DNA of 32,000 nucleotides from Halorhodospira halophila SL1 (GTDB taxonomy: Bacteria; Pseudomonadota; Gammaproteobacteria; Nitrococcales; Halorhodospiraceae): NCBI RefSeq assembly GCF_000015585.1, contig NC_008789.1, positions 1,650,001 through 1,682,000 on the forward strand, written 5' to 3'. Positions 219 through 28,908 of this stretch are shown here, piece by piece. The position numbers and the translations under genes are program-made. Every line of letters starts with the position of its first letter. Within the stretch, counting starts at the first letter, position 1. The notes below the pieces were generated by a model. The model had not been told where the DNA came from. It searched no databases and saw only the letters and a program-made list of their open reading frames with translations.

Positions 219-331
219 GGGTATCTGACTCCCCCAGCTTTCGTGCCGGAACCACTCTGGGGCAAGGCTAGCAGTGTCCTACGAGTCCGCAAGTTCGGTT
301 CGTAACCCTTTACAAAACCAGGACAACACCC

Positions 332-549: not shown

Positions 550-1119
550 GTGAACGCCCTCGACCTGGCAGAGGAGTTGGCCGATTTCTGGCTCCCGGTA
601 CTGGCGAAGCGCTCCTGGGAGGTGCGTGCCGACATGCTGGAGCAGATCCTTGGGCAGTTGGCGGACGACACCCCCGACCCCATGCTCTACCGCCGCCTGG
701 TCGCGTTTTTCCTGGCGACCGCGATCGATCGCCTTGCGGCCGATGAGCCGGTCGCCAGCCAGGCGCAGGCACGGATCTACATCCAGTCGGCCGATCCGAA
801 GCACCGCGCAATGGCCCTGGAACGCTTCCCCGAGGTCCACTCACGCCCTGCGTGGCGCGGCCACCCCCGTAACAACCCCCTGGACCGACGGGCCGCCCCG
901 CGACACCGCCTAACCGCCGAAGCAGGCATCGAAGCCGCCCGTACCAAGATCACGTGTCGGATCCACAATATCTCAAAGTCCGGAGCCCTAATTACCCTAC
1001 ATTTAATGCTTCAACCAAGCGATGAGGTTCACCTGACGCTGCGATCTCGCGACCAGCCGATAAACGGTCAGGTGGCGCGGGTTTCCGATCATGGCTGTGG
1101 CATCCTGTTCTGCGCATAA
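550..1119 (+). CDS. PilZ-domain (c-di-GMP-binding type) protein with an uncharacterised N-terminal domain
   Basis: GTG start with GGAG 8 nt upstream. The C-terminal region carries the two PilZ signatures: RRAAPR (RxxxR) and NISKSG (D/N-x-S-x-x-G). Confidence 0.7.
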   Translation: MNALDLAEELADFWLPVLAKRSWEVRADMLEQILGQLADDTPDPMLYRRLVAFFLATAIDRLAADEPVASQAQARIYIQSADPKHRAMALERFPEVHSRPAWRGHPRNNPLDRRAAPRHRLTAEAGIEAARTKITCRIHNISKSGALITLHLMLQPSDEVHLTLRSRDQPINGQVARVSDHGCGILFCA

Positions 1120-1309
1120 AGGAGACCTCGCGAGAACACCGGCCATCGCTCCGAGACTCGTCGCGAGCGCGAGTCCTTTACCCCACCGATAATATCGTTT
1201 TTACCTTAAATGACCCACCACGCTGCCGTGACGATGCTGTAGCATATTCATCGGTCCGATTCACGTTCAACCCCAAACGTCATGAGGATGAGGACAATTG
1301 GAGTTCGCG

Positions 1310-2032
1310 ATGTCATCCCCCTACTCCCGCTACAAGGTCATCCTGGCGACCGAAGATCAGGCGCGGTGCGCCCATTTCCAGTTACGATACATGGTTTATT
1401 GCGAAAAGAAGCAATATGAATCTTCAAGCCTTTTCCCGGATGGATATGAACGTGACGACCACGACAGTCACGCGCTCCACCTGCTTCTAAAATACACACC
1501 ACCGGGATCCCAGACGAATCGAAACGTGGGCACGATTCGTCTAATAAAAGGCGGAAACAAACCTCTTCCGATCGAGAACATCTCCGACCTGAACAGCAAT
1601 GAATTCACGAATGAATATAGTGGCGAGCTCTCGCGACTCGCTATCCATGAAGTGCCTTCAGGCCACGACACCCTCCCGCTGTTTATCCTCTGCCGTGCTG
1701 CACAGCACCACGCCAGGGGGTGTGGGATATCACGGCTATACTTCCTCGCTCGACCGGCGCTGGCCCGACATCTAACCCGTAACCATTTACCCTTCGAGCA
1801 GGCTGGTTCGCCTTGCTATCACCGCGGCCGCCGCATACCGTACGCGATGGACGTAAATGGCTTTGCTCGGGGGTTAGCGCGGTGGGAAAAGAAACTCATA
1901 AAACAGAAATTAGCCCCATCAAGTAAAACTGAAACCCTCCACGCCTACCAACATCCTAATAGACTTTCTGACATGGTTCCGAACGGCTGCCTGCAGACGA
2001 AGGGAATGCCGGAACCCAAAAAGGCGATATAA
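1310..2032 (+). CDS. PEP-CTERM/exosortase-system-associated acyltransferase (LuxI/FeeM-like N-acyl amino acid synthase fold), copy A
   Basis: FQLRYMVYCEKK...ERDDHD...GTIRLI...ELSRLAIHE matches the pattern of the exosortase-associated acyltransferase family (TIGR03694-like, from memory). ATG 1310 with GGAG 6 nt upstream is preferred over TTG 1298. GC is visibly lower than in neighbouring genes. Confidence 0.7.
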   Translation: MSSPYSRYKVILATEDQARCAHFQLRYMVYCEKKQYESSSLFPDGYERDDHDSHALHLLLKYTPPGSQTNRNVGTIRLIKGGNKPLPIENISDLNSNEFTNEYSGELSRLAIHEVPSGHDTLPLFILCRAAQHHARGCGISRLYFLARPALARHLTRNHLPFEQAGSPCYHRGRRIPYAMDVNGFARGLARWEKKLIKQKLAPSSKTETLHAYQHPNRLSDMVPNGCLQTKGMPEPKKAI

Positions 2033-2088
2033 GGACGACAGCATGGATTACATCGACTCCCGCCAGGCCAACAAGAGAACCAAAACCC

Positions 2089-2937
2089 ATGGATCGAAAC
2101 GAGCTAGTGAATCAATTCCAAGCCTATTTCGAGTATCAAGTAGCGCTGACACCGGAACAGCGCAGGGAGGCGTTCCAGCTCCGCTACGATGTCTACTGCA
2201 TGGAATACGGCTACGAAGACCCGTCGGACCACCCGGATGGGCAAGAGCAGGATGACTTCGACGAGAGCGCGTTAATTTGTACCGTACGGCACACTCAGAC
2301 CGGCCGCTTGGCCGGGTGCTTCCGGATTATCCTACCCGGAATGGAACCGTCTGAGCCTGAAAGGCTTCAAATGGAGGTGGACTGCACCGAAACCCTGTAC
2401 ACAAATGGTCGATTAGACTCGGGGCGGCACCCAAAGAATCTCCGACGCGATTCGGTTTGTGAAGTATCCCGCCTTGCTATCCACACCGACTTCCGCAAAC
2501 GCCCCGGCGAAAAGCAGACACGAATGGGTGCCGTTGACTGGCTTGACCTGCCCGAGGACCAGCGCCTTGCACACCTAAGGACCTTCCCGCTCCTTGGTTC
2601 CAGCCTGTTCTCCGCCGTCGCATACACCTGTGGACGGCTGGGACGAGATCACATCTTCGCGGTAATGGAACCACGTCTGGCTCGTCTACTTACCCGGGAA
2701 GGGATACGCTTCCAGCAGATTGGCGATGTCATGGAATACCATGGCGAGGAGCGCGCAGCATACTACAACTCACTGGAAAAATTCGTTGTGGAGACCGTTG
2801 CCTCCCCGCTGCTGAGACCACTCTATCGGATGGGGGAAAACCAGCTTGCACCAGGCTTGACGGTCTGGCTTGAGCGGCTTCGGAGCCATTCAAACGAGCA
2901 CTCGTGTGGCCGTAGGCCGGACAACAAGGTAAGCTGA
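2089..2937 (+). CDS. PEP-CTERM/exosortase-system-associated acyltransferase (LuxI/FeeM-like), copy B
   Basis: FQLRYDVYCMEYGYE...EQDDFDE...GCFRII...EVSRLAIHTDFRKR is paralogous to copy A. It has a longer insert between the conserved blocks. Confidence 0.75.
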   Translation: MDRNELVNQFQAYFEYQVALTPEQRREAFQLRYDVYCMEYGYEDPSDHPDGQEQDDFDESALICTVRHTQTGRLAGCFRIILPGMEPSEPERLQMEVDCTETLYTNGRLDSGRHPKNLRRDSVCEVSRLAIHTDFRKRPGEKQTRMGAVDWLDLPEDQRLAHLRTFPLLGSSLFSAVAYTCGRLGRDHIFAVMEPRLARLLTREGIRFQQIGDVMEYHGEERAAYYNSLEKFVVETVASPLLRPLYRMGENQLAPGLTVWLERLRSHSNEHSCGRRPDNKVS

Positions 2938-2938
2938 C

Positions 2939-3802
2939 ATGGCCCTCTTCGAATACCAGACCGCATTCAAGAGAACACTCGGGTGGATCACCGAGCAGGA
3001 GCAGGACACGCTTCGCAAAGCCACTGTGGCTATCGCAGGGCTAGGGGGTGTGGGAGGGAGCCACCTACTGACCCTAGCGCGGCTTGGCATCGGACGCTTT
3101 GCCGTCGCGGATTACGACGTCTTTGAACTGCACAACATGAACCGCCAGGCCGGCGCAACCATCAGCGCGCTGGGTCGGCCAAAAGTCGATGTGCTCTGCG
3201 AAAAAGCGCTCGACATCAACCCAGAGCTGGAGATCGAGCGATTCCCGAACGGGATTGACGCAGGCAATGTGGATCGGTTCCTTGATGGCGCTGACGTCTA
3301 CGTCGATGGCCTCGACTTCTTTGTCTACGATATACGGCAGCTGGTCTTTCGGCAGGCGGCCACTCGCCATATCCCTGCCTTCACCGCAGCGCCGCTGGGC
3401 ATGAGCGTCGCGTTCCTGGCGTTCCACCCCGGCGGGATCTCCTTCGAGCGCTATTTCCAGCTCGACCCGGAACTCGAAGAGGACGAAAAGGCTTTGCGGT
3501 TCATGCTGGGCCTTGCCCCTTCAGGACTCCACGCGGCTTCCTTGATCAACCCCTCCGCCATTGACCTCAAAGGGCAGTCGGGGCCATCCACCCCCATGGC
3601 CTGTGAACTCTGCGCCGGGGTCATGGGCACCGAGGTCCTCAAATGGCTCCTCCAGCGAGGTACCACCTACTGGGCCCCTTGGGCGGTGCAATTCGATGCC
3701 TACCGGATGAGGGTGCGGCGCACTTGGCGGCCCGGCGGCAACGCCCACCCCGTCCAACGCCTGGGCCTTTGGCTGGCAAGGCGCCGCCTGCTCGGGCAAT
3801 GA
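2939..3802 (+). CDS. ThiF/MoeB/E1-like adenylyltransferase, stand-alone
   Basis: Rossmann nucleotide loop AIAGLGGVGGSHLL, then DYDVFELHNMNRQ (the E1/ThiF D-x-D...N-L-N-R-Q block). Its ATG lies 1 nt after the TGA of the upstream acyltransferase (TGAcATG). Confidence 0.8.
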   Translation: MALFEYQTAFKRTLGWITEQEQDTLRKATVAIAGLGGVGGSHLLTLARLGIGRFAVADYDVFELHNMNRQAGATISALGRPKVDVLCEKALDINPELEIERFPNGIDAGNVDRFLDGADVYVDGLDFFVYDIRQLVFRQAATRHIPAFTAAPLGMSVAFLAFHPGGISFERYFQLDPELEEDEKALRFMLGLAPSGLHAASLINPSAIDLKGQSGPSTPMACELCAGVMGTEVLKWLLQRGTTYWAPWAVQFDAYRMRVRRTWRPGGNAHPVQRLGLWLARRRLLGQ

Positions 3803-12857: not shown

Positions 12858-12873
12858 TGGCACGCCCGATGCA
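12858..12873 (+). promoter_or_regulatory. Sigma-54 promoter upstream of PEP-CTERM gene 2
   Basis: TGGCACGCCCGATGCA lies 80 nt upstream of ATG 12953. It is identical to the 16-mer at 14395. Confidence 0.65.
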
Positions 12874-12952: not shown

Positions 12953-13984
12953 ATGAGGACCCAACCGATTCTAAGTCTCGCGACATCTTCGGCGGTGATG
13001 CTCAGCGTGCTCGCCACGCCTGCCCATGCGACTCAGTTCACCATCGACCCCAGCGAATTCGACGGTTTTGATGGCTACGAGGGGGGAGCAACCGCCCCCC
13101 TTGACTCGCTCAGCTGGGAACTACGAACCGCAACCCAGCAATTCGGGCCTAGCGAAAACGAAAACTGGGTCCCGGATCGAGGGTCTTCGTTTATCGACCG
13201 CGGCGTCGGACGCATCCAAGACTACAACCCATTCGATACCGGCGAGGATGTGGAACTGGGCAGTATCGGTGCAAGGGACATGACCCTCAGATGGAATAAT
13301 ATTAAAGGCCGGACCGGCGAGGCGCTCGAGACCCAGGAACTACTGGACGAGGCCGATAATGACCTGCCTGTTGATGAGGTAGGTAATGGCCGGTCTCTGA
13401 TCTATGACAGCGGGACCATCGAGTTCTTCTTTGCCGGAGACGACGATCAGGAGCTGCGAGACCTGGAGACCCCCGAGCCGTGGCACACGGGCGACGATAT
13501 CTGGAACCAGGCTGGTAGTGGCAAAAAAGTCCTCGAGTTGAAACTGACAGGCGGCAGCGCACTGGGTGGTTTCGAGCTCGACGACGACGGCAACCTCCAG
13601 GGGATTGAAGCGACCCAGTTTGACCTCGATTTTGAGGTCACTGATGCGCTGGACGGCTTTTGGGCCACCGCAGATGGTCGTGCCTTTGAAGAACTCATCG
13701 GGTTACAACTAATCACGGCGTTCGGTGAGGCCGGTGGCGCTACAGAAAGAAGCACGGTCATCAACGAGGACGCGTACAGCGATAACGGTGTTGCAGTTGC
13801 AGAAGATTCCGAGGTCGAGCTTTACACCCACTACGCCGGGGGCCGGGAAGGCAAAATGAACTTCCAGGTACCCGAGCCGAGCACGCTGGTGCTCATGGGC
13901 GGGTCGCTCGTGCTGATCGCCCTCGCCACCACCGGTGGCCTGCGCCGGCGGCGAGGCGAGAGCGGAACGCCCGCTTCAGCTTAG
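12953..13984 (+). CDS. PEP-CTERM sorting-domain protein, acidic paralog 2
   Basis: AGGAGA RBS and signal peptide MRTQPILSLATSSAVMLSVLATPAHA. C-terminus VPEPSTLVLMGGSLVLIALATTGGLRRRR. Collinear with paralogs 1 and 3 but carries an extra acidic insert. Confidence 0.85.
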   Translation: MRTQPILSLATSSAVMLSVLATPAHATQFTIDPSEFDGFDGYEGGATAPLDSLSWELRTATQQFGPSENENWVPDRGSSFIDRGVGRIQDYNPFDTGEDVELGSIGARDMTLRWNNIKGRTGEALETQELLDEADNDLPVDEVGNGRSLIYDSGTIEFFFAGDDDQELRDLETPEPWHTGDDIWNQAGSGKKVLELKLTGGSALGGFELDDDGNLQGIEATQFDLDFEVTDALDGFWATADGRAFEELIGLQLITAFGEAGGATERSTVINEDAYSDNGVAVAEDSEVELYTHYAGGREGKMNFQVPEPSTLVLMGGSLVLIALATTGGLRRRRGESGTPASA

Positions 13985-14394: not shown

Positions 14395-14410
14395 TGGCAC
14401 GCCCGATGCA
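14395..14410 (+). promoter_or_regulatory. Sigma-54 promoter upstream of PEP-CTERM gene 3
   Basis: TGGCACGCCCGATGCA lies 76 nt upstream of ATG 14486. Confidence 0.65.
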
Positions 14411-22415: not shown

Positions 22416-23903
22416 CTATCGGGATTCGGAAGCATCATCCATACGGCCGTAGAGGTCCTCGAAACGGACCAGATCGTCCTCCTCCAGATAGGGACCGGTC
22501 TGGATCTCGATGATCTGCAGCGGGATTCGCCCCGGATTCGACAGACGGTGCGGTCGAGTGGCCGGCACGTACGTCGACTGGTTCTCCTCGAGGTAGATCT
22601 CTTCGTCCCCATTGACCACCTTGGCGGTACCAGCGATCACCACCCAGTGCTCCGAGCGGTGGTAGTGCATCTGTAACGAGAGCTGACAACCGGGTTTCAC
22701 CACGATCCGCTTGAGCTTGTAGCGGTGACCGCTCTCCAGCGTGGTGTAGCTCCCCCAGGGGCGTGCCACGGTGACGTGGTACTCGGCAAGCTCCGGTTTG
22801 TACGCAGCGACCTCGGCGACGAGCGGCTTGAGGTCGCCCAGGCGATCCCGCGGGCAGACCAGGGTGGCATCGCGAGTCTGAACCAGTGCCAAGTTTTCCA
22901 CGCCGTAGGCAGCGAGCAGACCGCCGTCGGCACTCCAAAGGAGGTTGTCCTGACTATCGACAGGTAGCGCAGGTCCTTGGCAGACATTGCCGTGATCATC
23001 CTTGATCCGCTCTTGATAGAGCGCCTCCCAACTGCCCAGATCGCTCCAGCCCAGGTCCACCGGGACCACCGCTACCGAGTCGGCCCTCTCCAGCAGGCCG
23101 TAATCAATGGAGAGTTCGGGCAGCTGGCCGTAGCGATCAGAGTCCGGCGGGCAATCCGGCTCAGCCCACTCGGCTACGGCGTCGGCAATCTCCGGCTGAT
23201 GTGCGGCGAGTAGCTCCAGAAAACGATCCGCCCGAAAGACGAACATGCCGCTGTTCCAGTAGTAACCGCCCTGCTCGAGGTAGCGCTGAGCCGTCTGCCC
23301 ATCGGGTTTCTCCACGAAGCGCTGGACCTGCTCCACGCCGACCTCCAGCGCAGGGCCGGCCTGGATGTAGCCGAAACCGGTGGCCGGCTCGGTGGGCTGG
23401 ATGCCGAAGAGCACCAGCTTGCCGGCGTCCGCCGCCACCTCAGCCCGGGCCCAGGCCCCGCGCAATGCCTCGGCGTCGGCGATCTGGTGGTCGGAGGGGA
23501 AGACCCCGACGAGCGCATCGGGCCGCTCGTGGGCGATACGGGCCACCGCCCAGGCGATGGCCGGCAGGGTATTGCGGGCTGACGGCTCCACCAACACGCC
23601 CTCGGCCAGCTGCGGATCAACCTCATGCAGCTGGCCCTTGACCTCGAAGCGGTGGTCCACGTGCGTGACCGTGCTCATCCGCTGGGCCGGCAAGGCCGGT
23701 AGCAACCGCGCCGCCGTCTCCTGGAGAAGCGTGTCGGCACTGGTCAGGGCCAGCAGCTGCTTGGGCATGTTGCGCCGGGACAGCGGCCACAGACGGGTCC
23801 CGGACCCGCCGGCAAGGATCACCGCGTGGCGGCGGGCGGCACGCTCGAACACGTCTTGCGAATCAGGCGCTGCTTGCGACGGGGTGTAGGCATCATCGGC
23901 CAT
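22416..23903 (-). CDS. manC: Mannose-1-phosphate guanylyltransferase / mannose-6-phosphate isomerase (bifunctional type II)
   Basis: VILAGGSGTRLWPLSR nucleotidyltransferase motif plus a C-terminal cupin, QMHYHRSEHWVVIAGTAKV. ATG 23903 lies 8 nt after the stop of the upstream gene; the ORF-track start at 23951 overlaps that gene. Confidence 0.85.
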   Translation of the reverse strand: MADDAYTPSQAAPDSQDVFERAARRHAVILAGGSGTRLWPLSRRNMPKQLLALTSADTLLQETAARLLPALPAQRMSTVTHVDHRFEVKGQLHEVDPQLAEGVLVEPSARNTLPAIAWAVARIAHERPDALVGVFPSDHQIADAEALRGAWARAEVAADAGKLVLFGIQPTEPATGFGYIQAGPALEVGVEQVQRFVEKPDGQTAQRYLEQGGYYWNSGMFVFRADRFLELLAAHQPEIADAVAEWAEPDCPPDSDRYGQLPELSIDYGLLERADSVAVVPVDLGWSDLGSWEALYQERIKDDHGNVCQGPALPVDSQDNLLWSADGGLLAAYGVENLALVQTRDATLVCPRDRLGDLKPLVAEVAAYKPELAEYHVTVARPWGSYTTLESGHRYKLKRIVVKPGCQLSLQMHYHRSEHWVVIAGTAKVVNGDEEIYLEENQSTYVPATRPHRLSNPGRIPLQIIEIQTGPYLEEDDLVRFEDLYGRMDDASESR

Positions 23904-23910
23904 AGGGGCA

Positions 23911-25086
23911 TCATCCGTGCTGTTGTGGATCCATCTGCGCCGCCTCGGCATCCAGATCCCGGGGTGCGCGGAAGGCCTTGTAGAACAGGTGACGAACCAG
24001 TAGCCAAGGCGGCATCTTCAGCCAGTGGCCACGGACAAGCATCAGGCCTCGCGCCAGGGCATCGGCTCTCGGCGTCGTGGAGAGATGGCCGTTCAGCGCG
24101 TGCTCGAACGCAGGCCGCACAATACGCTTGCCCAAAAACCCGGGGGTGTGGTGACTCAGGCGCTCCACTGCCGCCTGCGGGACTGGGGTACCGAAGCGCC
24201 GCCGGCAGCACCAGACGGCCGGCTCCACCAGCCAGAGCAGCCGCATGGCCTCGGCCTCGTCGAGCAGCGCCTCCCAGAACCGGTCGCCGTGCTGCTGATG
24301 GAAGTGCTCAAGCAGGCTATGGATGTCGTAAAGATCCCGCAATCCGCGGTCCCAATCGGTTTCCGAGAACAGGTGGACGATGGCGTGGAGTACCAAGTGC
24401 CGGGGCGCCGGCAGCCGCAGCCAGTGCAGCCCCGGAGCGGGGGCGGCGTGCTCAAAGATGGGGGCCGGATCGACGACCACGGCGAAGGTCTCGGGCAAGA
24501 TGTTATGGTGCAGATCCAGCGTGGTCCCGCGTTTGCGGTGTTGCAGAGGCGGGAGCTCGTGCATCCACTGCCGGTAGTAACGCTGATCGTAGGCGTCGTG
24601 GTGGGTCCCCGCCCACCCTTCATAGAACAGGGCCGACTCGACTCGCTCGACCTCCGCCTTTTGTGCCAACAGATCGATATCCGCCACGATCCTCCCGGCC
24701 GCATTCGGCAATCCCGCCAGCAGGTAGGCGCCCCCCTTCAAGGCGACCGGAGCAGTGAACCGCCGCAACACCCCGCGGTCGAGCTGTTGCAACTCCCACC
24801 GAAGCGCCGCGGCGTTGGTCTCGGCAGTTGCTGCCGCACCCCACAGATGCCCGGCCACCCACTCCGGCAACTGCCCTTCGACCCCACAGCTCACCGCACG
24901 GTGCCACAACGCCCCGAGCAAGAGGTTCTCACGCCCCACGGCCAGGATCCCCGTCCACAGCGACTCCGGAAAGCCGGCCAGGGTCTCAGGCCAGGCCAGG
25001 CCTTGTCCGAGCGCGTGAGCAGGATTAAGCGGCCAGCGCGTCAAAGCTCTCGACGGCCTCCTCCAGCCGGCTGTAACCGAAGTCAT
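23911..25086 (-). CDS. Uncharacterised nucleotidyltransferase-fold protein (PF14907-like)
   Basis: PVALKGGAYLL...GRIVADIDLLAQKAEVERVESALFYEGW...TTLDLHHNILP matches the 'uncharacterised nucleotidyltransferase' pattern. The start is uncertain: ATG 25086, TTG 25044 or ATG 25167. All three overlap the 3' end of the kinase gene. Confidence 0.6.
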   Translation of the reverse strand: MTSVTAGWRRPSRALTRWPLNPAHALGQGLAWPETLAGFPESLWTGILAVGRENLLLGALWHRAVSCGVEGQLPEWVAGHLWGAAATAETNAAALRWELQQLDRGVLRRFTAPVALKGGAYLLAGLPNAAGRIVADIDLLAQKAEVERVESALFYEGWAGTHHDAYDQRYYRQWMHELPPLQHRKRGTTLDLHHNILPETFAVVVDPAPIFEHAAPAPGLHWLRLPAPRHLVLHAIVHLFSETDWDRGLRDLYDIHSLLEHFHQQHGDRFWEALLDEAEAMRLLWLVEPAVWCCRRRFGTPVPQAAVERLSHHTPGFLGKRIVRPAFEHALNGHLSTTPRADALARGLMLVRGHWLKMPPWLLVRHLFYKAFRAPRDLDAEAAQMDPQQHG

Positions 25087-25945
25087 AGCCCGGTGCCTGC
25101 TCCACAAGGTCCACCGTTCTGTGGAAGGCACGCCTTCCGAGGGCGGCATAGTTGAACGATTGGGCAATCAGCCCCATCAGCGTATCCGCCGGGGAGCGCT
25201 CTCGCCAGCTCACGGGCCCGTAGGGACGGTAGCGAGGGAACACCACCCAGCCCGGCGGGGTGGGCTCGCTCGCCCGCGCAACACTCGCCGCTGGCGGCCG
25301 CATATGCGCGACTGAACCCTTGCGAGTGTCGCAGCACGGCGTGCTAATCACCGCCTCGGGCGCAAAGCGCTGGATCACCTCGATGGAGGCGTTCTTCAGA
25401 CTAACCGGCCTTGCCAACCCGTAGAGCAGCGGCTGAGGGCCGGCCAGCTCGACTGCGGCCACCTCGTCGCTCAGCAACCGCCAACCGCGGTTGGCCAGCG
25501 CGGCACACAGGGTGCTCTTCCCCGCTTCCGGCGGCGCCGGCAAGATCACCGCGCGGCCATTCTTTTCCAGGCAGGCCGCGTGAAAGAGCAGGAAATGCTT
25601 GGTCTGCATCCCCACGCACCAGTTCAGGCCCCACTCAAGCATCGGGAACGCCTGATTGCGGGGGAGCGGCTTGAAAATGCGTTTAGCGTCCGCGTAGAAG
25701 AGCGCCTGGGGCCTGTAGTAGCGGCGCACCCCGCGGCCGGACACGACCTCACAGTGAAAATCACAGCCGTGCTCTGACTCAAGAACCGGGTGATCGGCGT
25801 AGAGCTGCCAGATCCCTTGCGCCACAGAGGCTAAACGGCTGCGGAGGGCAAAGCGGAAGGGACCGGTCTGAACGGCAAGCTCCCCGCTGGATAGACGATC
25901 CACGACGCTGCTGTAGCCCAGCCCAGCGATCGTCGTCACGTGCAC
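25025..25945 (-). CDS. HPr-kinase-related P-loop protein ('HprK-related kinase A' type)
   Basis: AVILPAPPEAGKSTLCAALANRGWRLLSDE resembles the HprK/P C-terminal domain P-loop region. The GTG start at 25945 overlaps the upstream stop by 10 nt. Confidence 0.65.
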   Translation of the reverse strand: MHVTTIAGLGYSSVVDRLSSGELAVQTGPFRFALRSRLASVAQGIWQLYADHPVLESEHGCDFHCEVVSGRGVRRYYRPQALFYADAKRIFKPLPRNQAFPMLEWGLNWCVGMQTKHFLLFHAACLEKNGRAVILPAPPEAGKSTLCAALANRGWRLLSDEVAAVELAGPQPLLYGLARPVSLKNASIEVIQRFAPEAVISTPCCDTRKGSVAHMRPPAASVARASEPTPPGWVVFPRYRPYGPVSWRERSPADTLMGLIAQSFNYAALGRRAFHRTVDLVEQAPGYDFGYSRLEEAVESFDALAA

Positions 25946-26283
25946 TCCCGGATTAGACGCGCATCCATGAGCGGCTGCAGGGCCCAGCCCAGAAGATCCT
26001 CCCGAGAACCTGGCTGCGTGCCCGCCTCCACGAGCCCACCATCGTCCTCAGCCACCGCCTTAAGCAACTCCCGCTCCGTCACCGAGGTACGCTCGCTGAT
26101 CCGGGCCAGGATCTCTGTCGAGAGGCGGGGCATGGCGTAGGTGGAGCCTGAGCCGCGGTGGTAGACGAAACCATACGCCCCGACAAGGCGCCAAGCGAGA
26201 TCGTTGGAGCGCAATGACCAGCGCCGCGAACTCCTCTCCCCAGGCTGAGGCGACTCCTGTATACGGGGTTCAGAGTCGCTCAT
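25936..26283 (-). CDS. PqqD-family protein (RiPP-recognition-element fold)
   Basis: 115 aa. GFVYHRGSGSTYAMPRLSTEILARISE...TERELLKAV...LLGWALQPLMDARLI follows the PqqD pattern. Its ATG directly abuts the TAA of the upstream gene, with GAGG 5 nt upstream. Confidence 0.6.
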   Translation of the reverse strand: MSDSEPRIQESPQPGERSSRRWSLRSNDLAWRLVGAYGFVYHRGSGSTYAMPRLSTEILARISERTSVTERELLKAVAEDDGGLVEAGTQPGSREDLLGWALQPLMDARLIRECT

Positions 26284-26964
26284 TTAAGCCTCATGAAGGA
26301 AAAAAGGATCGGCCGTTATATTCTCGAGAAACAGGGCGACCTCCTCGGGCCCCAAGGGCACCTCACCGGTGCTCGTTTCGTAATTCTCTCCGTTAAGGGC
26401 CGTTCGAACTAGATCCTTAATCTCCTCTGCGGTGGGGCTGCCGTTATAAAAACCGGCCTCACTATTCAGCAACGCCGCCGTACCGTAGTAAATCACTGTA
26501 CGATCCGTTCGGGAGACAAGAGACCCAGTTGATTGGTAGACAGCATACGGGCCGCCGTTGGCATTCGACCAGACCGCATACTTCAGACGAAGCTCCTGAC
26601 TAAGATCTTCATCTTCGTAGTATACGTTTCCCGAGTACTCAAAGGCTGCCACAAATAATCTTTCCTGGTCCTCTTCACTCATCGCACCGTTGTTCGATCC
26701 CCAGTAACCGGGAGAACGGCCACCACAGTCTTTAGCGTCGCCGTGCTGAGACCCCCCAGACACCCAGCCCGATGGATGACAGTTCCCACCTTCGATCGAG
26801 CCGGCCCGAAGCGGATTGCTATGGAAGGCCAGCAGTACCGGCACGCTGCCCAGGGCCGCTTGCCCGAAGCGCCGGCGCGACATCCCCCGGCTCGGGGGGT
26901 GTTTGCCTTGCCCTTCCGCGATTTCGTGCGGCTCGGGTGCTTGGTTCCGCTCGTGTTCCGTCAT
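26284..26964 (-). CDS. Hypothetical secreted protein with twin-arginine (Tat) signal
   Basis: SRRRFGQAALGSVPVLLAF Tat motif after a 27-aa hydrophilic N-extension. GAGGGG lies 8 nt upstream of ATG 26964; ATG 26883 is an alternative start. I recognise no family, and GC is lower than in the surroundings. Confidence 0.6.
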   Translation of the reverse strand: MTEHERNQAPEPHEIAEGQGKHPPSRGMSRRRFGQAALGSVPVLLAFHSNPLRAGSIEGGNCHPSGWVSGGSQHGDAKDCGGRSPGYWGSNNGAMSEEDQERLFVAAFEYSGNVYYEDEDLSQELRLKYAVWSNANGGPYAVYQSTGSLVSRTDRTVIYYGTAALLNSEAGFYNGSPTAEEIKDLVRTALNGENYETSTGEVPLGPEEVALFLENITADPFFLHEA

Positions 26965-27024
26965 CGCGGCAACCCCTCAAGATTGTGTTCAATGTCTAGT
27001 CGATTTGCTGCCTAGCAGAACGCT

Positions 27025-27041
27025 TAGCAAGTTTCGCGCCG
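27025..27041 (-). promoter_or_regulatory. Sigma-54-type promoter of the Tat-protein/PqqD/HprK-like/NTase operon
   Basis: The minus strand reads CGGCGCGAAACTTGCTA: GG-N10-GC spacing with a TTGCT -12 box. It lies 61 nt upstream of ATG 26964. Confidence 0.5.
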
Positions 27042-27124
27042 ATAGGCAGGCTTCACCCCAGCCCCTATCCCGCTCAGGGCGTTGAACGAGGCGGTGACAA
27101 TCCGTCACTGCCACGGTCTCCGCC

Positions 27125-27145
27125 GGTGTAAAGGCTCTCTACACC
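27125..27145 (-). promoter_or_regulatory. Candidate UAS, perfect dyad GGTGTA-N9-TACACC
   Basis: The minus strand reads GGTGTA-GAGAGCCTT-TACACC; the extended palindrome CCGGTGTA...TACACCGG spans 27123-27147. It ends 85 nt before the -24 GG at 27040. Confidence 0.45.
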
Positions 27146-27159
27146 GGCCCCACCCGGAC

Positions 27160-28036: not shown

Positions 28037-28057
28037 GGCGTCGAGATCGTTTACACT
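28037..28057 (+). promoter_or_regulatory. Candidate UAS dyad for PEP-CTERM gene 4
   Basis: GGCGTC-GAGATCGTT-TACACT ends 88 nt before the -24 GG at 28145. This upstream region is not paralogous to those of pep1-3. Confidence 0.4.
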
Positions 28058-28143
28058 CAACCCGCCGCCACCTCTATCACGAGGCGCACCGCACTCTCCG
28101 TACCTCCCTGTACCGCCCACAGGTGCTGGCCTATCCCCCCTGT

Positions 28144-28159
28144 CGGCATAGCCCTTGCT
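28144..28159 (+). promoter_or_regulatory. Sigma-54-type promoter upstream of PEP-CTERM gene 4
   Basis: CGGCATAGCCCTTGCT is GGCAT-N5-TTGCT. It lies 39 nt upstream of ATG 28198. Confidence 0.55.
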
Positions 28160-28197
28160 TAGCAGTCGCGAATACAAAAAAGCGCGCGGAGGGATGC

Positions 28198-28908
28198 ATG
28201 AGAACCGGGACCAAGGCACCGCTAGCCTTCAGCTGGCTTTTGATTGCCGCTTACAGCCTGCCGACTCAGGCAGACATCATCGCATTGGACTTTGAAGAGT
28301 TTGGCATCGTAAACGGGACCGAACCCATTCAAGACTTTTACGCGGGCGGCACCAACGATGCTGGCTTCTCCGGTCCTGACTACGGCATCAATTTTTCAGA
28401 TAGTGCCCGGGCCTTGACCTCGCAAACAACGAACCACCCATTAGCCATCGGAAATTTTGAAAACAACCCAGCCGGCAATAACGTCCTTTTTTTCCCTGAT
28501 CACGATATCGCAACAATGAATGTTCCCGGCGGGTTTGAAACAGAATTTTCATTCTATTACTCATCCTCTGAGACTGCGTTCGTTAATGTTTATAGTGAGC
28601 CTCATGGCGAGGGGGAGTTGTTGCAGTCCGTCGAGCTATCGGAAAACTGGCAAGACGACGGTTGCGATGCCGCCGCGGCAACCAGTTACTGCAACTTCGA
28701 TGACGTAGGGGTTGAACTCGATGGCACCGCACAATCCGTGGACTTCGGCGGCACTATTGACAGAGTAGCGTATGACTCCATCACTCTTGGAACCGAGCCA
28801 ACCGAGGAGCCAACGGACGTCCCGGAGCCGGCTACACTTAAGAGCTTCGCCGCAGGCCTGGCAGGGCTAATCGCATTGGTCGTCATAGGCCAACGACGCA
28901 AAACCTGA
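28198..28908 (+). CDS. PEP-CTERM sorting-domain protein 4 (unrelated to paralogs 1-3)
   Basis: ATG 28198 follows GGAGGG. Signal peptide MRTGTKAPLAFSWLLIAAYSLPTQA. C-terminus VPEPATLKSFAAGLAGLIALVVIGQRRKT. GC is lower than the locus average. Confidence 0.8.
   Translation: MRTGTKAPLAFSWLLIAAYSLPTQADIIALDFEEFGIVNGTEPIQDFYAGGTNDAGFSGPDYGINFSDSARALTSQTTNHPLAIGNFENNPAGNNVLFFPDHDIATMNVPGGFETEFSFYYSSSETAFVNVYSEPHGEGELLQSVELSENWQDDGCDAAAATSYCNFDDVGVELDGTAQSVDFGGTIDRVAYDSITLGTEPTEEPTDVPEPATLKSFAAGLAGLIALVVIGQRRKT

What the first reader, a model, noticed from the sequence alone, without database searches (positions are those of the whole stretch)
23911..27145. Orphan PqqD-like RRE + HPr-kinase-like + nucleotidyltransferase cassette co-transcribed with a Tat-signal protein and wired to the PEP-CTERM promoter type
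Four minus-strand genes are packed with abutting or overlapping stops and starts:
- the Tat-signal protein (26964-26284), whose TAA abuts the next ATG;
- a PqqD-like protein (26283-25936);
- an HPr-kinase-like P-loop protein, whose GTG at 25945 overlaps the preceding stop by 10 nt;
- a PF14907-like nucleotidyltransferase that overlaps the kinase 3' end and stops 8 nt before manC.

PqqD-like proteins serve as RiPP recognition elements. To my knowledge, HPr-kinase homologues and this nucleotidyltransferase fold act as tailoring enzymes on lasso-peptide precursors, phosphorylating the C-terminal Ser and then decorating it further.

Here there is no lasso cyclase, no leader peptidase and no plausible short precursor ORF. 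The only co-transcribed candidate substrate is a 226-aa protein of no family I recognise. Its Tat motif (SRRRFGQAAL) is preceded by an unusual 27-aa hydrophilic extension (MTEHERNQAPEPHEIAEGQGKHPPSRG) that could act as a leader.

I recall model names such as 'HprK-related kinase A' and 'PqqD family protein, HPr-rel-A system', with unknown function.

What the sequence adds is that the operon carries the best copy of the dyad plus a sigma-54 promoter of the same kind as the PEP-CTERM genes. That predicts co-induction with exosortase cargo, and possibly modification of a secreted or cargo protein or of the EPS. A SAM methyltransferase ends 15 nt upstream of the dyad and may belong to the same module.
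Basis: partly seen in the sequence, partly recalled or inferred. Interest (0 to 1): 0.85.

Follow-up and report, generated by a model that had tools for sequence, protein, structure and literature searches.

The report
Peptide-tailoring cassette with conserved exported partner
A four-gene operon in a Halorhodospira slime-production locus pairs peptide-modifying enzymes, of the kind known from lasso-peptide antibiotics, with a previously unrecognised family of exported proteins that is probably their target, and it is switched on by the same regulator as the cell-surface PEP-CTERM proteins.

Summary
Four tightly packed minus-strand genes encode a 226-aa twin-arginine-signal protein ("X"), a PqqD-type peptide chaperone (TIGR04353), HprK-related kinase A (TIGR04352) and a PF14907 nucleotidyltransferase. 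No lasso cyclase or leader peptidase is present in the window.

- **X is not an orphan.** In 80 loci fetched through the kinase, an X homologue sits directly upstream of PqqD–kinase in at least 65 of 74 assessable loci. The nucleotidyltransferase follows the kinase in 70 of 73.
- **X is a large, uncurated family.** It has about 2,950 cluster representatives at 50% identity, no Pfam or NCBIfam model, and no fold match in the PDB.
- **The N-terminal region is the best-conserved part of X.** It is followed by an invariant Cys/Ser motif (C-x2-S-G-x2-S-G-N-x-S). Three loci from other phyla have only the leader plus a tail of about 20-25 residues, like a classical RiPP (ribosomally made, post-translationally modified peptide) precursor.
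- **The promoter is the published PEP-CTERM type.** It has a TGT-N11-ACA/TTTACA box, a spacer of about 85 nt and a sigma-54 −24/−12 element. This architecture recurs upstream of X in about 45-48% of loci, against 1-3% in controls.

Best reading: X is the dedicated substrate. It is held by its leader, phosphorylated and further decorated in the cytoplasm, then exported. This is inferred from sequence comparison and has not been shown biochemically.

The parts
27123..27147 (-). PEP-CTERM box, the predicted PrsR enhancer site. It reads TGTAGAgagccTTTACA (27142-27127) and sits inside a perfect palindrome with 8-bp arms, CCGGTGTA-N9-TACACCGG.
   Evidence: The site fits the consensus TGTCGG-N5-TTTACA that emerged from 31 related loci. 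It is one of only three matches to the box pattern in the window. The other two lie upstream of PEP-CTERM genes.
27027..27042 (-). Sigma-54 type promoter, CGGCGCGAAACTTGCT (−24 GG, −12 GC). It lies 61 nt upstream of the ATG and about 85 nt downstream of the box.
   Evidence: only exact match to GGCRCG-N4-TTGC in the window.. The geometry matches Haft 2006 (PMC1569441).
26284..26964 (-). Protein X, 226 aa. It belongs to a large family with no curated model and is the proposed substrate of the cassette.
   Evidence: An X homologue sits directly upstream of PqqD-kinase in at least 65 of 74 loci. No Pfam or NCBIfam hit was found. The AF2 model is confident for residues 60-220 and has no PDB fold match.
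26803..26964 (-). Leader and twin-arginine signal region of X (residues 1-54): a 27-aa hydrophilic extension, then SRRRF, a moderately hydrophobic stretch, and NPLRA.
   Evidence: RR is 99-100% conserved and this region has the highest information content in the protein (2.58 bits per column). RR sits at median position 29, h-region hydropathy is 0.74, and the c-region carries a basic residue.
26749..26781 (-). Invariant Cys/Ser motif of X (C62-H-P-S65-G-W-V-S69-G-G-S72). This is the best candidate for the modified 'core'.
   Evidence: C62 97%, S65 100%, S69 98%, S72 97% of 183 representatives; similar PS..SG or C..S..S motifs follow the leader in the divergent and short variants.
25936..26283 (-). 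PqqD-family peptide chaperone (RiPP recognition element, RRE) of the 'HPr-rel-A system'.
   Evidence: TIGR04353, 65.7 bits against a cutoff of 35; the family profile hits the lasso RREs TbiB1 5V1U (E=2e-4) and TfuB1 6JX3 (E=4e-4); the gene abuts the kinase in 72 loci.
25025..25945 (-). HprK-related kinase A, a P-loop protein with the HPr-kinase/phosphorylase-like core.
   Evidence: TIGR04352, 364.9 bits against a cutoff of 200. H122, G142-K-S-T145 and S159-D-E161 are invariant, and the profile's best PDB hits are HprK/P 1JB1 and 2QMH (E about 5e-4).
23911..25044 (-). PF14907 nucleotidyltransferase. The start is TTG 25044 as in the NCBI call; the alternative is ATG 25086.
   Evidence: PF14907, 174 bits. 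K103-G104...D122-x-D124 are invariant. AF2 pLDDT 91.6, with a Pol-beta-type NTase core (5UVD probability 0.99, ANT(2'')-Ia about 0.9); directly downstream of the kinase in 70 of 73 loci.
22416..23903 (-). manC (GDP-mannose synthesis). It starts 7 nt after the NTase stop and is probably co-transcribed here. It is a lineage-specific neighbour and not part of the core cassette.
   Evidence: TIGR01479, 535 bits; manC lies near the cassette in L001, L012, L065 and L081/L082 only.

Best explanation
The region is a four-gene operon, X–PqqD–HprK_A–NTase. It is driven by a sigma-54 promoter with an upstream PEP-CTERM box, so it belongs to the PrsK/PrsR regulon that also controls the PEP-CTERM surface proteins of this exopolysaccharide locus.

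The proposed sequence of events is as follows.
1. X is made with a long N-terminal leader that doubles as a twin-arginine export signal.
2. The PqqD-type chaperone binds this leader, as lasso B1 proteins bind their leaders.
3. The chaperone presents the segment just downstream, the invariant C-x2-S-G-x2-S-G-N-x-S motif, to the HPr-kinase-like enzyme, which phosphorylates a serine.
4. The PF14907 nucleotidyltransferase then elaborates that site, either with a nucleotidyl group or, as in the lasso peptide pseudomycoidin, with a glycosyl group on the phosphate.
5. The finished, folded protein is exported, probably by the Tat pathway, to act in the periplasm or the matrix together with the exopolysaccharide and the PEP-CTERM proteins.

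Shown here by computation:
- the family memberships of the three enzymes;
- the conserved four-gene order;
- the conservation pattern of X;
- the promoter architecture and its conservation.

Inferred:
- binding of the leader by PqqD;
- X as the substrate;
- the modified residue;
- the chemistry;
- Tat dependence;
- PrsR dependence.
For: Enzyme identities
- Curated equivalog models are hit well above their cutoffs, and PF14907 is hit at 174 bits.
- The PqqD profile's top solved relatives are the lasso leader-binding proteins TbiB1 and TfuB1.
- The kinase retains the HprK/P core of a conserved His, the P-loop and the acidic pair.
- The NTase retains the G...DxD motif and a Pol-beta NTase core in a model with pLDDT 91.6.

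Linkage
- X lies directly upstream, on the same strand, in at least 65 of 74 loci by HMM. L023, L044 and L064 add further RR-signal proteins by eye.
- PqqD abuts the kinase in 72 loci, and the NTase lies downstream in 70 of 73.
- An unbiased census of neighbouring genes finds no other universal partner.
- Starting from X homologues, including a distant one, recovers the same cassette.
- Gene fusions link the enzymes: PqqD–kinase in L018 and L030, kinase–NTase in L038.

Substrate logic
- In 183 representatives that share no more than 50% identity, the leader region is the most conserved part of X. It scores 2.58 bits per column, against 1.63 for the C-terminal domain and 0.9 for the middle.
- The Ser cluster immediately after the leader is invariant.
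- Divergent clades keep the leader but swap the mature domain.
- Planctomycetota and Rokubacteria loci have 83-88-aa versions consisting of the leader plus a Ser/Gly/Pro-rich tail of about 20-25 aa.

Export
- RR is invariant, the h-region is only moderately hydrophobic, and the c-region has a basic residue and ends with an alanine (consensus SRPVLA).

Regulation
- The geometry of box, spacer, sigma-54 element and distance to the ATG matches Haft 2006.
- The same architecture precedes the PEP-CTERM genes at 12953, 14432 and 28198 in the window.
- Upstream of X, 31 of 65 loci have TTTAC plus −24/−12 at the right spacing, against 2 of 65 for the reverse complement and 1.5% of random windows.
- An extended consensus, TGTCGG-N5-TTTACA, emerged although it was not used for selection.
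- PrsK and PrsR are encoded in the window.
- Sigma-54 dependence of a PEP-CTERM gene with such a promoter has been shown experimentally in Aquincola (PMC9850573).

Precedent for the chemistry
- HPr-kinase homologues phosphorylate a Ser of lasso precursors, and a nucleotidyltransferase adds hexose to that phosphate (PMC8498205).
Against: - There is no biochemical evidence for any step.
- X in this window is a confidently folded 170-aa domain with invariant Cys, Ser, Trp and Asn residues. That pattern would also suit an enzyme or a binding protein and does not by itself point to a substrate.
- Lasso kinases act on the C-terminal Ser, whereas the invariant serines here lie near the N terminus of the mature protein. 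The semi-conserved C-terminal [YF]Lx[SN]T[MW] motif is an alternative site.
- The curated Tat-signal models (TIGR01409, PF10518) do not flag X. The export route therefore rests on motif reading only.
- Only about half of the loci show a recognisable box-plus-sigma-54 promoter, and only about half lie within 10 kb of PEP-CTERM/EPS genes.
- I could not verify that the lasso nucleotidyltransferase belongs to PF14907. That is recalled from memory and was not tested.
Confidence: 0.5

Rival explanations
1. X is a co-regulated secreted enzyme or binding protein and not the substrate. The PqqD–kinase–NTase trio modifies something else, such as a small peptide encoded elsewhere, the PEP-CTERM proteins or their tails, or a sugar or lipid intermediate of the exopolysaccharide.
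For: - The mature domain of X is well folded, with invariant C, S, W and N residues.
- The cassette is embedded in XrtA-type EPS loci in about half of the cases, next to exporter, chain-length determinant and priming glycosyltransferase genes.
- manC abuts the NTase in Halorhodospira.
- PF14907 also occurs in a phosphonate gene cluster family (GCF 540), flanking Ppm together with a thymidylate kinase.
Against: - A PqqD-type recognition element implies a peptide partner, and the only universally adjacent gene is X.
- The leader of X is better conserved than its mature domain. It persists when the mature domain is replaced, or is reduced to about 20-25 residues in L038, L059 and L070.
- PEP-CTERM genes and manC are absent from the fetched flanks of many loci.
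- No alternative short ORF is conserved or even present upstream in the window.
Confidence: 0.25
2. The PqqD-like protein works mainly as a chaperone for the Tat signal peptide, in the manner of TorD or NapD. It delays export while the kinase and the NTase build or attach a nucleotide-derived prosthetic group on a serine of X, as CitG and CitX do for citrate lyase acyl carrier protein. On this reading the modification is a cofactor and not a RiPP-style decoration.
For: - Tat substrates are typically loaded with cofactors in the cytoplasm under chaperone control (established knowledge).
- The RR and h-region is the most conserved part of X.
- Pol-beta-fold enzymes attach phosphoribosyl-linked groups to serines in CitX/MdcG systems (my recollection, not tested here).
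- The invariant Ser and Cys cluster sits on a folded domain.
Against: - No detectable similarity to TorD, NapD, CitX or CitG families was seen in any search.
- The short leader-plus-tail variants have no domain that could use a cofactor.
- The closest solved relatives of the PqqD protein are RiPP leader-binding domains.
Confidence: 0.15
3. The gene juxtaposition and the upstream motifs are fortuitous. The four genes are unrelated neighbours read from an ordinary promoter.
For: The sigma-54 and box matches are short motifs. The curated Tat models do not hit X.
Against: - Gene order and strand are conserved across 70 or more loci from Gamma- and Betaproteobacteria, Planctomycetota, Rokubacteria and Acidobacteriota.
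- Start and stop codons overlap or abut.
- Fusions between the enzyme genes occur.
- The motif architecture is enriched 15- to 30-fold over controls.
- No sigma-70-like promoter is found in the region.
Confidence: 0.02

Closest known systems
Phosphorylated and phosphoglycosylated lasso peptide pathways (paeninodin, pseudomycoidin)
   Same: - A PqqD-type leader-binding protein occurs together with an HPr-kinase homologue that phosphorylates a Ser of the ribosomal precursor, and a nucleotidyltransferase that decorates the phosphate (PMC8498205).
- The PqqD profile here finds lasso B1 proteins as its best solved relatives.
   Different: - There is no lasso cyclase, no B2 leader peptidase and no ABC exporter.
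- The partner is usually a roughly 200-aa protein with a twin-arginine signal, not a 40-50-aa precursor.
- The candidate serines follow the leader and are not at the C terminus.
- The operon is under sigma-54/PEP-CTERM-box control inside or alongside EPS loci.
'HPr-rel-A system' as defined by NCBIfam/TIGRFAMs (TIGR04352 HprK-related kinase A plus TIGR04353 PqqD family peptide chaperone)
   Same: The window's kinase and PqqD proteins are members, scoring above the curated equivalog cutoffs.
   Different: - The curated system consists of these two models. No curated model covers protein X, and no paper in the searched library mentions the system.
- This analysis adds three things: the conserved X partner, the universal PF14907 partner, and the link to the PEP-CTERM regulon.
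- I cannot exclude that the curators' unpublished notes already mention some of these.
PrsK/PrsR/sigma-54 regulon of PEP-CTERM proteins (Haft et al. 2006)
   Same: - The cis-regulatory architecture is the same: a TTTACA-containing motif 1, a spacer, a sigma-54 motif 2 and about 60-70 nt to the start codon.
- prsK, prsR and prsT are in the window.
   Different: - X has no PEP-CTERM sorting domain.
[quoted passage not shown] This operon appears to be a recurrent non-PEP-CTERM member of the regulon.
Signal-peptide-bearing RiPP precursors (e.g. bufferins) and Tat proofreading chaperones (TorD/NapD)
   Same: An export signal appears to double as the recognition handle for cytoplasmic maturation before export. 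Both comparisons rest on my recollection of the literature and were not tested here.
   Different: - Bufferins use Sec signals and MNIO enzymes.
- TorD-type chaperones are unrelated in sequence to PqqD.
- No similarity to either set of proteins was detected in any search here.

Membership tests
HprK-related kinase A (TIGR04352) | Score above the curated equivalog cutoff over the full length | tested here: met
   364.9 bits against a cutoff of 200, covering residues 24-304 of 306.
HprK-related kinase A (TIGR04352) | HPr kinase/phosphorylase-type catalytic core: a conserved His, a Walker-A P-loop and an acidic pair | tested here: met
   H122, G142-K-S-T145 and S159-D160-E161 are invariant in 30 sequences. 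The profile's best PDB hits are HprK/P 1JB1 and 2QMH, E about 5e-4, aligned over this core.
HprK-related kinase A (TIGR04352) | Protein or peptide Ser kinase activity | not testable with these tools
   Needs an in-vitro assay or co-expression with mass spectrometry.
PqqD-family RiPP recognition element (TIGR04353 / PF05402) | Score above the curated cutoff of the HPr-rel-A PqqD model | tested here: met
   65.7 bits against a cutoff of 35.
PqqD-family RiPP recognition element (TIGR04353 / PF05402) | Match to Pfam PqqD (PF05402) | tested here: inconclusive
   The window protein has no hit at E<0.01. Ten of 40 orthologues hit, the best at E=2.4e-5.
PqqD-family RiPP recognition element (TIGR04353 / PF05402) | Homology to structurally characterised leader-binding domains | tested here: met
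   The profile hits TbiB1 (5V1U, E=2e-4) and TfuB1 (6JX3, E=4e-4) over nearly the full domain.
PqqD-family RiPP recognition element (TIGR04353 / PF05402) | Binds the leader of an adjacent precursor | not testable with these tools
   No multimer modelling was available. Needs a binding assay or AlphaFold-multimer.
PF14907 (NTP_transf_5) nucleotidyltransferase | Pfam gathering score, plus the Pol-beta NTase signature G[SA]...D-x-D | tested here: met
   174 bits against 31.2. K103-G104 and D122-x-D124 are invariant in 59 sequences. The AF2 core resembles 5UVD (probability 0.99) and ANT(2'')-Ia (probability about 0.9).
Lasso peptide biosynthetic gene cluster | Asn-synthetase-like cyclase (C), transglutaminase-like leader peptidase (B2) and a short precursor with a C-terminal Ser | tested here: not met
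   None is found in the 32-kb window. There is no short ORF upstream. No such family appears among the conserved neighbours.
Twin-arginine (Tat) signal peptide | S/T-R-R-x-F-L-K-like motif, a moderately hydrophobic h-region, and a c-region with a basic residue and an A-x-A-like cleavage site | tested here: met
   The window has SRRRFGQ...PVLLAFHSNPLRA. RR is present in 99-100% of 183 representatives, the mean h-region hydropathy is 0.74, and the consensus is TLASRPVLA.
Twin-arginine (Tat) signal peptide | Recognition by curated Tat-signal models (TIGR01409, PF10518) | tested here: not met
   None of 51 members hits TIGR01409 at E<=1. No Pfam hit for X or for ten representatives. These models are short and HMMER's filters may drop weak hits.
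Twin-arginine (Tat) signal peptide | Export depends on TatABC and on the RR pair | not testable with these tools
   Needs tat mutants or an RR-to-KK substitution.
PrsR/sigma-54 (PEP-CTERM box) regulon | Motif 1 (containing TTTACA), a spacer, a −24 GG/−12 GC motif and about 70 nt to the start codon | tested here: met
   The box is at 27142-27127, the sigma-54 element at 27042-27027 and the ATG at 26964. The geometry is as published. The architecture is conserved in 29-31 of 65 loci against 1-3% in controls.
PrsR/sigma-54 (PEP-CTERM box) regulon | Transcription depends on PrsR and RpoN | not testable with these tools
   prsK and prsR are present in the window. Dependence needs expression data from mutants.
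PEP-CTERM protein | C-terminal PEP-CTERM sorting domain (TIGR02595 / PF07589) | tested here: not met
   X has no such hit. Its C terminus reads ...FLENITADPFFLHEA.
RiPP precursor | Conserved leader with a variable core, encoded next to the RRE and the tailoring enzymes | tested here: met
   The leader is the most conserved region. Mature domains differ by clade while the leader persists. Adjacency holds in at least 65 of 74 loci.
RiPP precursor | Small size (typically under 100-120 aa) | tested here: not met
   X is 226 aa in the window and typically about 200 aa. Only L038, L059 and L070 have versions of 83-88 aa.

The most novel reading that the evidence does not exclude
A twin-arginine signal peptide serves at the same time as a RiPP-style leader. 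A PqqD-family chaperone holds the Tat signal of X in the cytoplasm, acting as a proofreading step. Meanwhile an HPr-kinase-like enzyme and a PF14907 nucleotidyltransferase install a phosphate-linked (glycosyl or nucleotidyl) group on the invariant C-x2-S-G-x2-S-x2-S motif. The decorated, folded protein is then exported by Tat as a dedicated matrix or exopolysaccharide-associated factor of the PEP-CTERM/exosortase regulon. This would be a widespread protein-level offshoot of lasso-type tailoring chemistry, with about 3,000 sequence clusters, that needs no lasso machinery. It would also be a missing component of floc and biofilm matrix assembly.
Probability: 0.3. Interest if true: 0.85.

Novelty: new variant of a known kind. 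Interest (0 to 1): 0.68.

Why it matters
- **A testable substrate for an orphan system.** The 'HPr-rel-A system' has been a named but functionless entry in annotation databases. This analysis gives it a concrete candidate substrate: a large protein family with no curated model. In the H. halophila record that carries this sequence, the family member is called as a truncated 132-aa product lacking its leader.
- **A regulatory context.** The system falls in the PrsK/PrsR/sigma-54 regulon, which controls the PEP-CTERM proteins needed for floc formation.
- **Consequences if the proposed mechanism holds.** RRE-guided kinase and nucleotidyltransferase tailoring, known only from lasso peptides, would be shown to work on full-size exported proteins. 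An export signal would be shown to double as a maturation handle. A new player would be added to exosortase-linked matrix assembly, which matters for activated-sludge flocculation and environmental biofilms.

Tried and rejected
- **Methyltransferase as part of the module: rejected.** Homologues lie near the cassette only in close relatives (L002, L073, L081/L082). It is absent from the conserved-neighbour census. The promoter lies between it and X.
- **manC as part of the module: rejected as a core member.** It is adjacent only in Halorhodospira-like loci.
- **Hidden short precursor ORF: none found.** The upstream intergenic region has no credible candidate.
- **Fold-based function for X: led nowhere.** The AF2 model is confident, but Foldseek against the PDB gives nothing better than E=4.6 and TM<=0.17. 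The profile against PDB sequences also gives nothing.
- **Sequence relatives of the NTase in the PDB: none.** The only 'hit' is a chance match of YDQRYYRxWMHE to a prion peptide at E=9.
- **The palindrome as an intrinsic terminator of the methyltransferase gene: not supported.** It has no T-tract and was not reported by the terminator scan. It fits the enhancer-box consensus instead.
- **Curated Tat-signal models: no hits**. The Tat assignment therefore stays motif-based.
- **Literature on TIGR04352, TIGR04353, HPr-rel-A or PF14907 function: nothing relevant found**.

Full report
**What is there.** The window comes from Halorhodospira halophila: it matches NCBI H. halophila proteins at 100% identity. 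It is an XrtA/PEP-CTERM exopolysaccharide locus. It carries:
- prsT, prsR and prsK;
- the TIGR03013 priming glycosyltransferase;
- the TIGR03027 exporter;
- galE and manC;
- several PEP-CTERM or PepA-like genes;
- two exosortase-associated acyltransferases.

- X runs from 26964 to 26284, and its TAA abuts the next ATG.
- The PqqD-like gene runs from 26283 to 25936.
- The kinase runs from 25945 to 25025, with a 10-nt overlap with PqqD, or 4 nt from the in-frame GTG at 25939.
- The nucleotidyltransferase (NTase) ends at 23911, 7 nt before the manC ATG at 23903. Its start is either TTG 25044, as NCBI calls it (377 aa), or ATG 25086.

**Family assignments.** The recalled names are correct.
- The kinase scores 364.9 bits on TIGR04352, 'HprK-related kinase A' (cutoff 200).
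- The small protein scores 65.7 bits on TIGR04353, 'HPr-rel-A system PqqD family peptide chaperone' (cutoff 35).
- The last gene scores 174 bits on PF14907.

I checked what these labels rest on.
- A profile of 40 PqqD orthologues finds the lasso-peptide leader-binding proteins TbiB1 (5V1U) and TfuB1 (6JX3) as its best solved relatives, over almost the whole domain. Ten of the 40 hit PF05402 directly, although the window protein does not.
- A profile of 30 kinases finds HPr kinase/phosphorylase structures first. The alignment covers the conserved His, the P-loop and the acidic pair, all of which are invariant in the family.
- The NTase has no sequence relative in the PDB. A high-confidence AF2 model (pLDDT 91.6, pTM 0.90) has a Pol-beta-type nucleotidyltransferase core. 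The matches are 5UVD at probability 0.99 and ANT(2'')-Ia at about 0.9. The G...D-x-D signature is invariant.
- No lasso cyclase, B2 peptidase or short precursor exists in the window.

**The main new result: X is a conserved fourth component.** I fetched 80 loci through the kinase. They come from Gamma- and Betaproteobacteria, and from MAGs labelled Planctomycetota, Rokubacteria, Terriglobales (Acidobacteriota) and Stellaceae.

An iterative HMM search started from the window's X and ran over all six-frame ORFs of these loci.
- It hit, almost exclusively, one ORF per locus, lying directly upstream of PqqD on the same strand. That gives 65 of the 74 loci with enough upstream sequence.
- L023, L044 and L064 carry further RR-signal proteins at that position that the HMM missed.
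- In L026, X lies downstream of the NTase.

Other linkage figures:
- PqqD abuts the kinase in 72 loci, and the NTase follows it in 70 of 73.
- PqqD–kinase fusions (L018, L030) and a kinase–NTase fusion (L038) tie the enzymes together.
- A homology census of all neighbouring ORFs found no other universal partner.
- The reciprocal test also holds. X homologues P0039 and the distant P0050 are each followed by a small ORF, a ScmC/HprK-like gene and a PF14907 gene.

**What X looks like.** All database homologues are 'hypothetical'. None has a Pfam domain, and none hits an NCBIfam model. An exhaustive HMMER search gives 2,950 cluster representatives at E<=1e-3 and 1,058 at E<=1e-10, mostly about 200 aa long. 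The NCBI call for this very gene is a 132-aa truncation that lacks the N terminus.

Conservation was measured on 183 representatives sharing no more than 50% identity.
- The RR pair is 99-100% conserved.
- The signal/leader region (consensus sRRRLLkG...aPVLLTLaSRPVlA) is the most conserved segment of the protein.
- It scores 2.58 bits per column, against 2.11 for the following motif, 1.63 for the C-terminal helical domain and 0.9 for the middle.

Directly after the predicted signal comes an invariant motif, C62-x2-S65-G-x2-S69-G-N-x-S72...C80-x-G-x2-P-G-Y-W88.

The mature domain is confidently modelled (pLDDT 84-97 for residues 60-220). It has no fold match in the PDB.

Divergent clades keep the leader, and usually a C..S..S motif, but carry unrelated mature domains. 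L038, L059 and L070 encode only 83-88 residues: the leader plus a Ser/Gly/Pro-rich tail of about 20-25 residues. A conserved leader with a variable or minimal core, next to an RRE and tailoring enzymes, is the genetic signature of a RiPP precursor.

**Is it a Tat signal?** By motif, yes. X has S-R-R-x-F/L, a moderately hydrophobic h-region (Kyte-Doolittle 0.74) and a basic residue in the c-region, ending in a small residue. By curated HMMs, no: TIGR01409 and PF10518 do not report it. I therefore treat Tat export as likely but unproven. The unusual sequence conservation of this region argues that something besides the translocase reads it, and the PqqD chaperone is the obvious candidate.

**Promoter.** Upstream of X there are three elements, read on the minus strand.
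- The palindrome CCGGTGTA-N9-TACACCGG lies at 27147-27123.
- A sigma-54-type CGGCGCGAAACTTGCT lies at 27042-27027.
- The ATG follows 61 nt later.

Haft et al. 2006 described just this layout for proteobacterial PEP-CTERM genes (PMC1569441). Motif 1 contains TTTACA. A spacer of 63±11 nt follows, then a sigma-54 motif, then about 71 nt to the start codon. They attributed this layout to PrsR.

In the window the same layout precedes:
- the PepA-like genes at 12953 and 14432, whose −24/−12 elements are identical (TGGCACGCCCGATGCA);
- the PEP-CTERM gene whose true ATG is 28198 (box at 28040-28055, sigma-54 element at 28145-28158);
- a PilZ-domain gene at 550.

Across loci, 31 of 65 X-upstream regions carry TTTAC followed 55-125 nt later by a −24/−12 element. 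The controls give 2 of 65 for the reverse complement and 1.5% for random windows.

Aligning those boxes exposed an extended consensus, TGTCGG-N5-TTTACA. This is a TGT-N11-ACA dyad of the NtrC/NifA type. It had not been used for selection. Searching for the extended box alone gives 29 of 65, against 2 of 65 and 1.2% in the controls. Thirteen of these 29 loci have no PEP-CTERM/EPS gene in the fetched flanks, so the regulatory tie outlasts physical linkage.

The window's copy, TGTAGAgagccTTTACA, fits the consensus and is the most symmetrical copy in the window. Sigma-54 dependence of a PEP-CTERM gene with such a promoter has been shown experimentally in Aquincola (PMC9850573).

**Genomic context.** Of the 41 loci with at least 8 kb on both sides, 20 carry PrsK, PrsR, PrsT, the priming transferase or the exporter within 10 kb.
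- Frequent accessory neighbours are the XrtA-system chain-length determinant, the Tyr autokinase, the TIGR03016 outer-membrane protein and a trypsin-like protease.
- Other loci sit next to prfA–prmC.
- The methyltransferase and manC are lineage-specific neighbours.

**Mechanism proposed.** The best-supported reading has five steps.
1. PrsK/PrsR and sigma-54 switch the operon on together with the PEP-CTERM cargo.
2. X is synthesised, and the PqqD chaperone binds its leader.
3. The kinase phosphorylates a serine of the adjacent invariant motif.
4. The NTase elaborates that site.
5. The folded, decorated protein leaves by the Tat route.

The precedent for the chemistry is lasso tailoring. There, HPr-kinase homologues phosphorylate a Ser of the linear precursor, and a nucleotidyltransferase adds one or two hexoses to the phosphate (PMC8498205). 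Every biochemical step here is inferred. I put 0.5 on 'X is the substrate of this trio', and less on the residue and the group added.

The main rival (0.25) is that X is merely a co-regulated secreted protein and the enzymes act on something else. A cofactor-attachment variant (0.15) keeps X as the target but changes the meaning of the modification.

**Novelty.** No paper in the searched library discusses it. The new points are:
- the conserved but uncurated X family, with a leader that looks like a Tat signal;
- the universal PF14907 partner;
- the minimal-precursor variants;
- membership of the PEP-CTERM-box regulon.

I class this as a new variant of a known kind: RRE-guided kinase and NTase tailoring moved from lasso peptides to exported proteins.

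Noticed in passing
window 26284-26964 (-): The NCBI protein for this gene (P0001, 100% identical) is only 132 aa. The public annotation starts at an internal Met and omits the leader, the RR signal and the invariant Cys/Ser motif.
   Followed up: partly
L038:9316-9579, L059:9399-9650, L070:3119-3385: The Planctomycetota and Rokubacteria loci encode short X versions of 83-88 aa. These consist of the RR leader plus a Ser/Gly/Pro-rich tail of about 20-25 aa, and they look like classical RiPP precursors.
   Followed up: partly
L018:9563-10888, L030:4500-5825, L038:10004-12181: Natural gene fusions occur: PqqD–kinase in L018 and L030, and kinase–nucleotidyltransferase in L038. In L026 the X gene lies downstream of the NTase, not upstream of PqqD.
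   Followed up: partly
window 309-314, 427-442 and 550-1119 (+): A PilZ-domain (c-di-GMP receptor type) gene is preceded by a TTTACA box and TGGCACGGCACATGCA. It therefore seems to be another non-PEP-CTERM member of the predicted PrsR/sigma-54 regulon.
   Followed up: partly
window 28040-28055, 28145-28158, 28198: The PEP-CTERM gene listed as ORF 28123-28908 probably starts at ATG 28198. A PEP-CTERM box (GTCGAGATCGTTTACA) and a sigma-54 element (GGCATAGCCCTTGC) lie inside the over-extended ORF, divergent from the methyltransferase gene.
   Followed up: yes
window 27090-27112 (-): A second imperfect inverted repeat, GGCAGTGAC-ggatt-GTCACCGCC, sits between the enhancer box and the sigma-54 element of the X promoter. 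It might bind another factor or a DNA-bending protein.
   Followed up: no
window 12858-12873 and 14395-14410 (+): Two PepA-like PEP-CTERM paralogues have identical −24/−12 elements (TGGCACGCCCGATGCA). A further CTTTACACC at 13820 lies inside the 3' end of the first gene and has no sigma-54 element after it.
   Followed up: partly
L004:7155-7997 and 16 other loci; L083:5092-5853: A trypsin-like serine protease gene recurs just upstream of X, or of the exporter gene plus X, in about 17 loci. It could be a processing enzyme for X, or simply part of the XrtA locus.
   Followed up: no
P0089 (808 aa): One database protein contains six repeated stretches matching the middle and C-terminal domain of X. 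The mature domain can therefore occur as a tandem repeat.
   Followed up: no
window 24553-24588 (-), NTase residues about 153-164 (377-aa numbering): The nearly invariant NTase motif YDQRYYRxWMHElPP gave a chance match (E=9) to the prion protein segment YEDRYYRENMH. This is a curiosity only.
   Followed up: no
window 1298-3802 (+): Two tandem exosortase-associated acyltransferase genes (TIGR03694) are followed by a ThiF/E1-like adenylyltransferase gene (PRK08223 family). The arrangement is unexplained.
   Followed up: no
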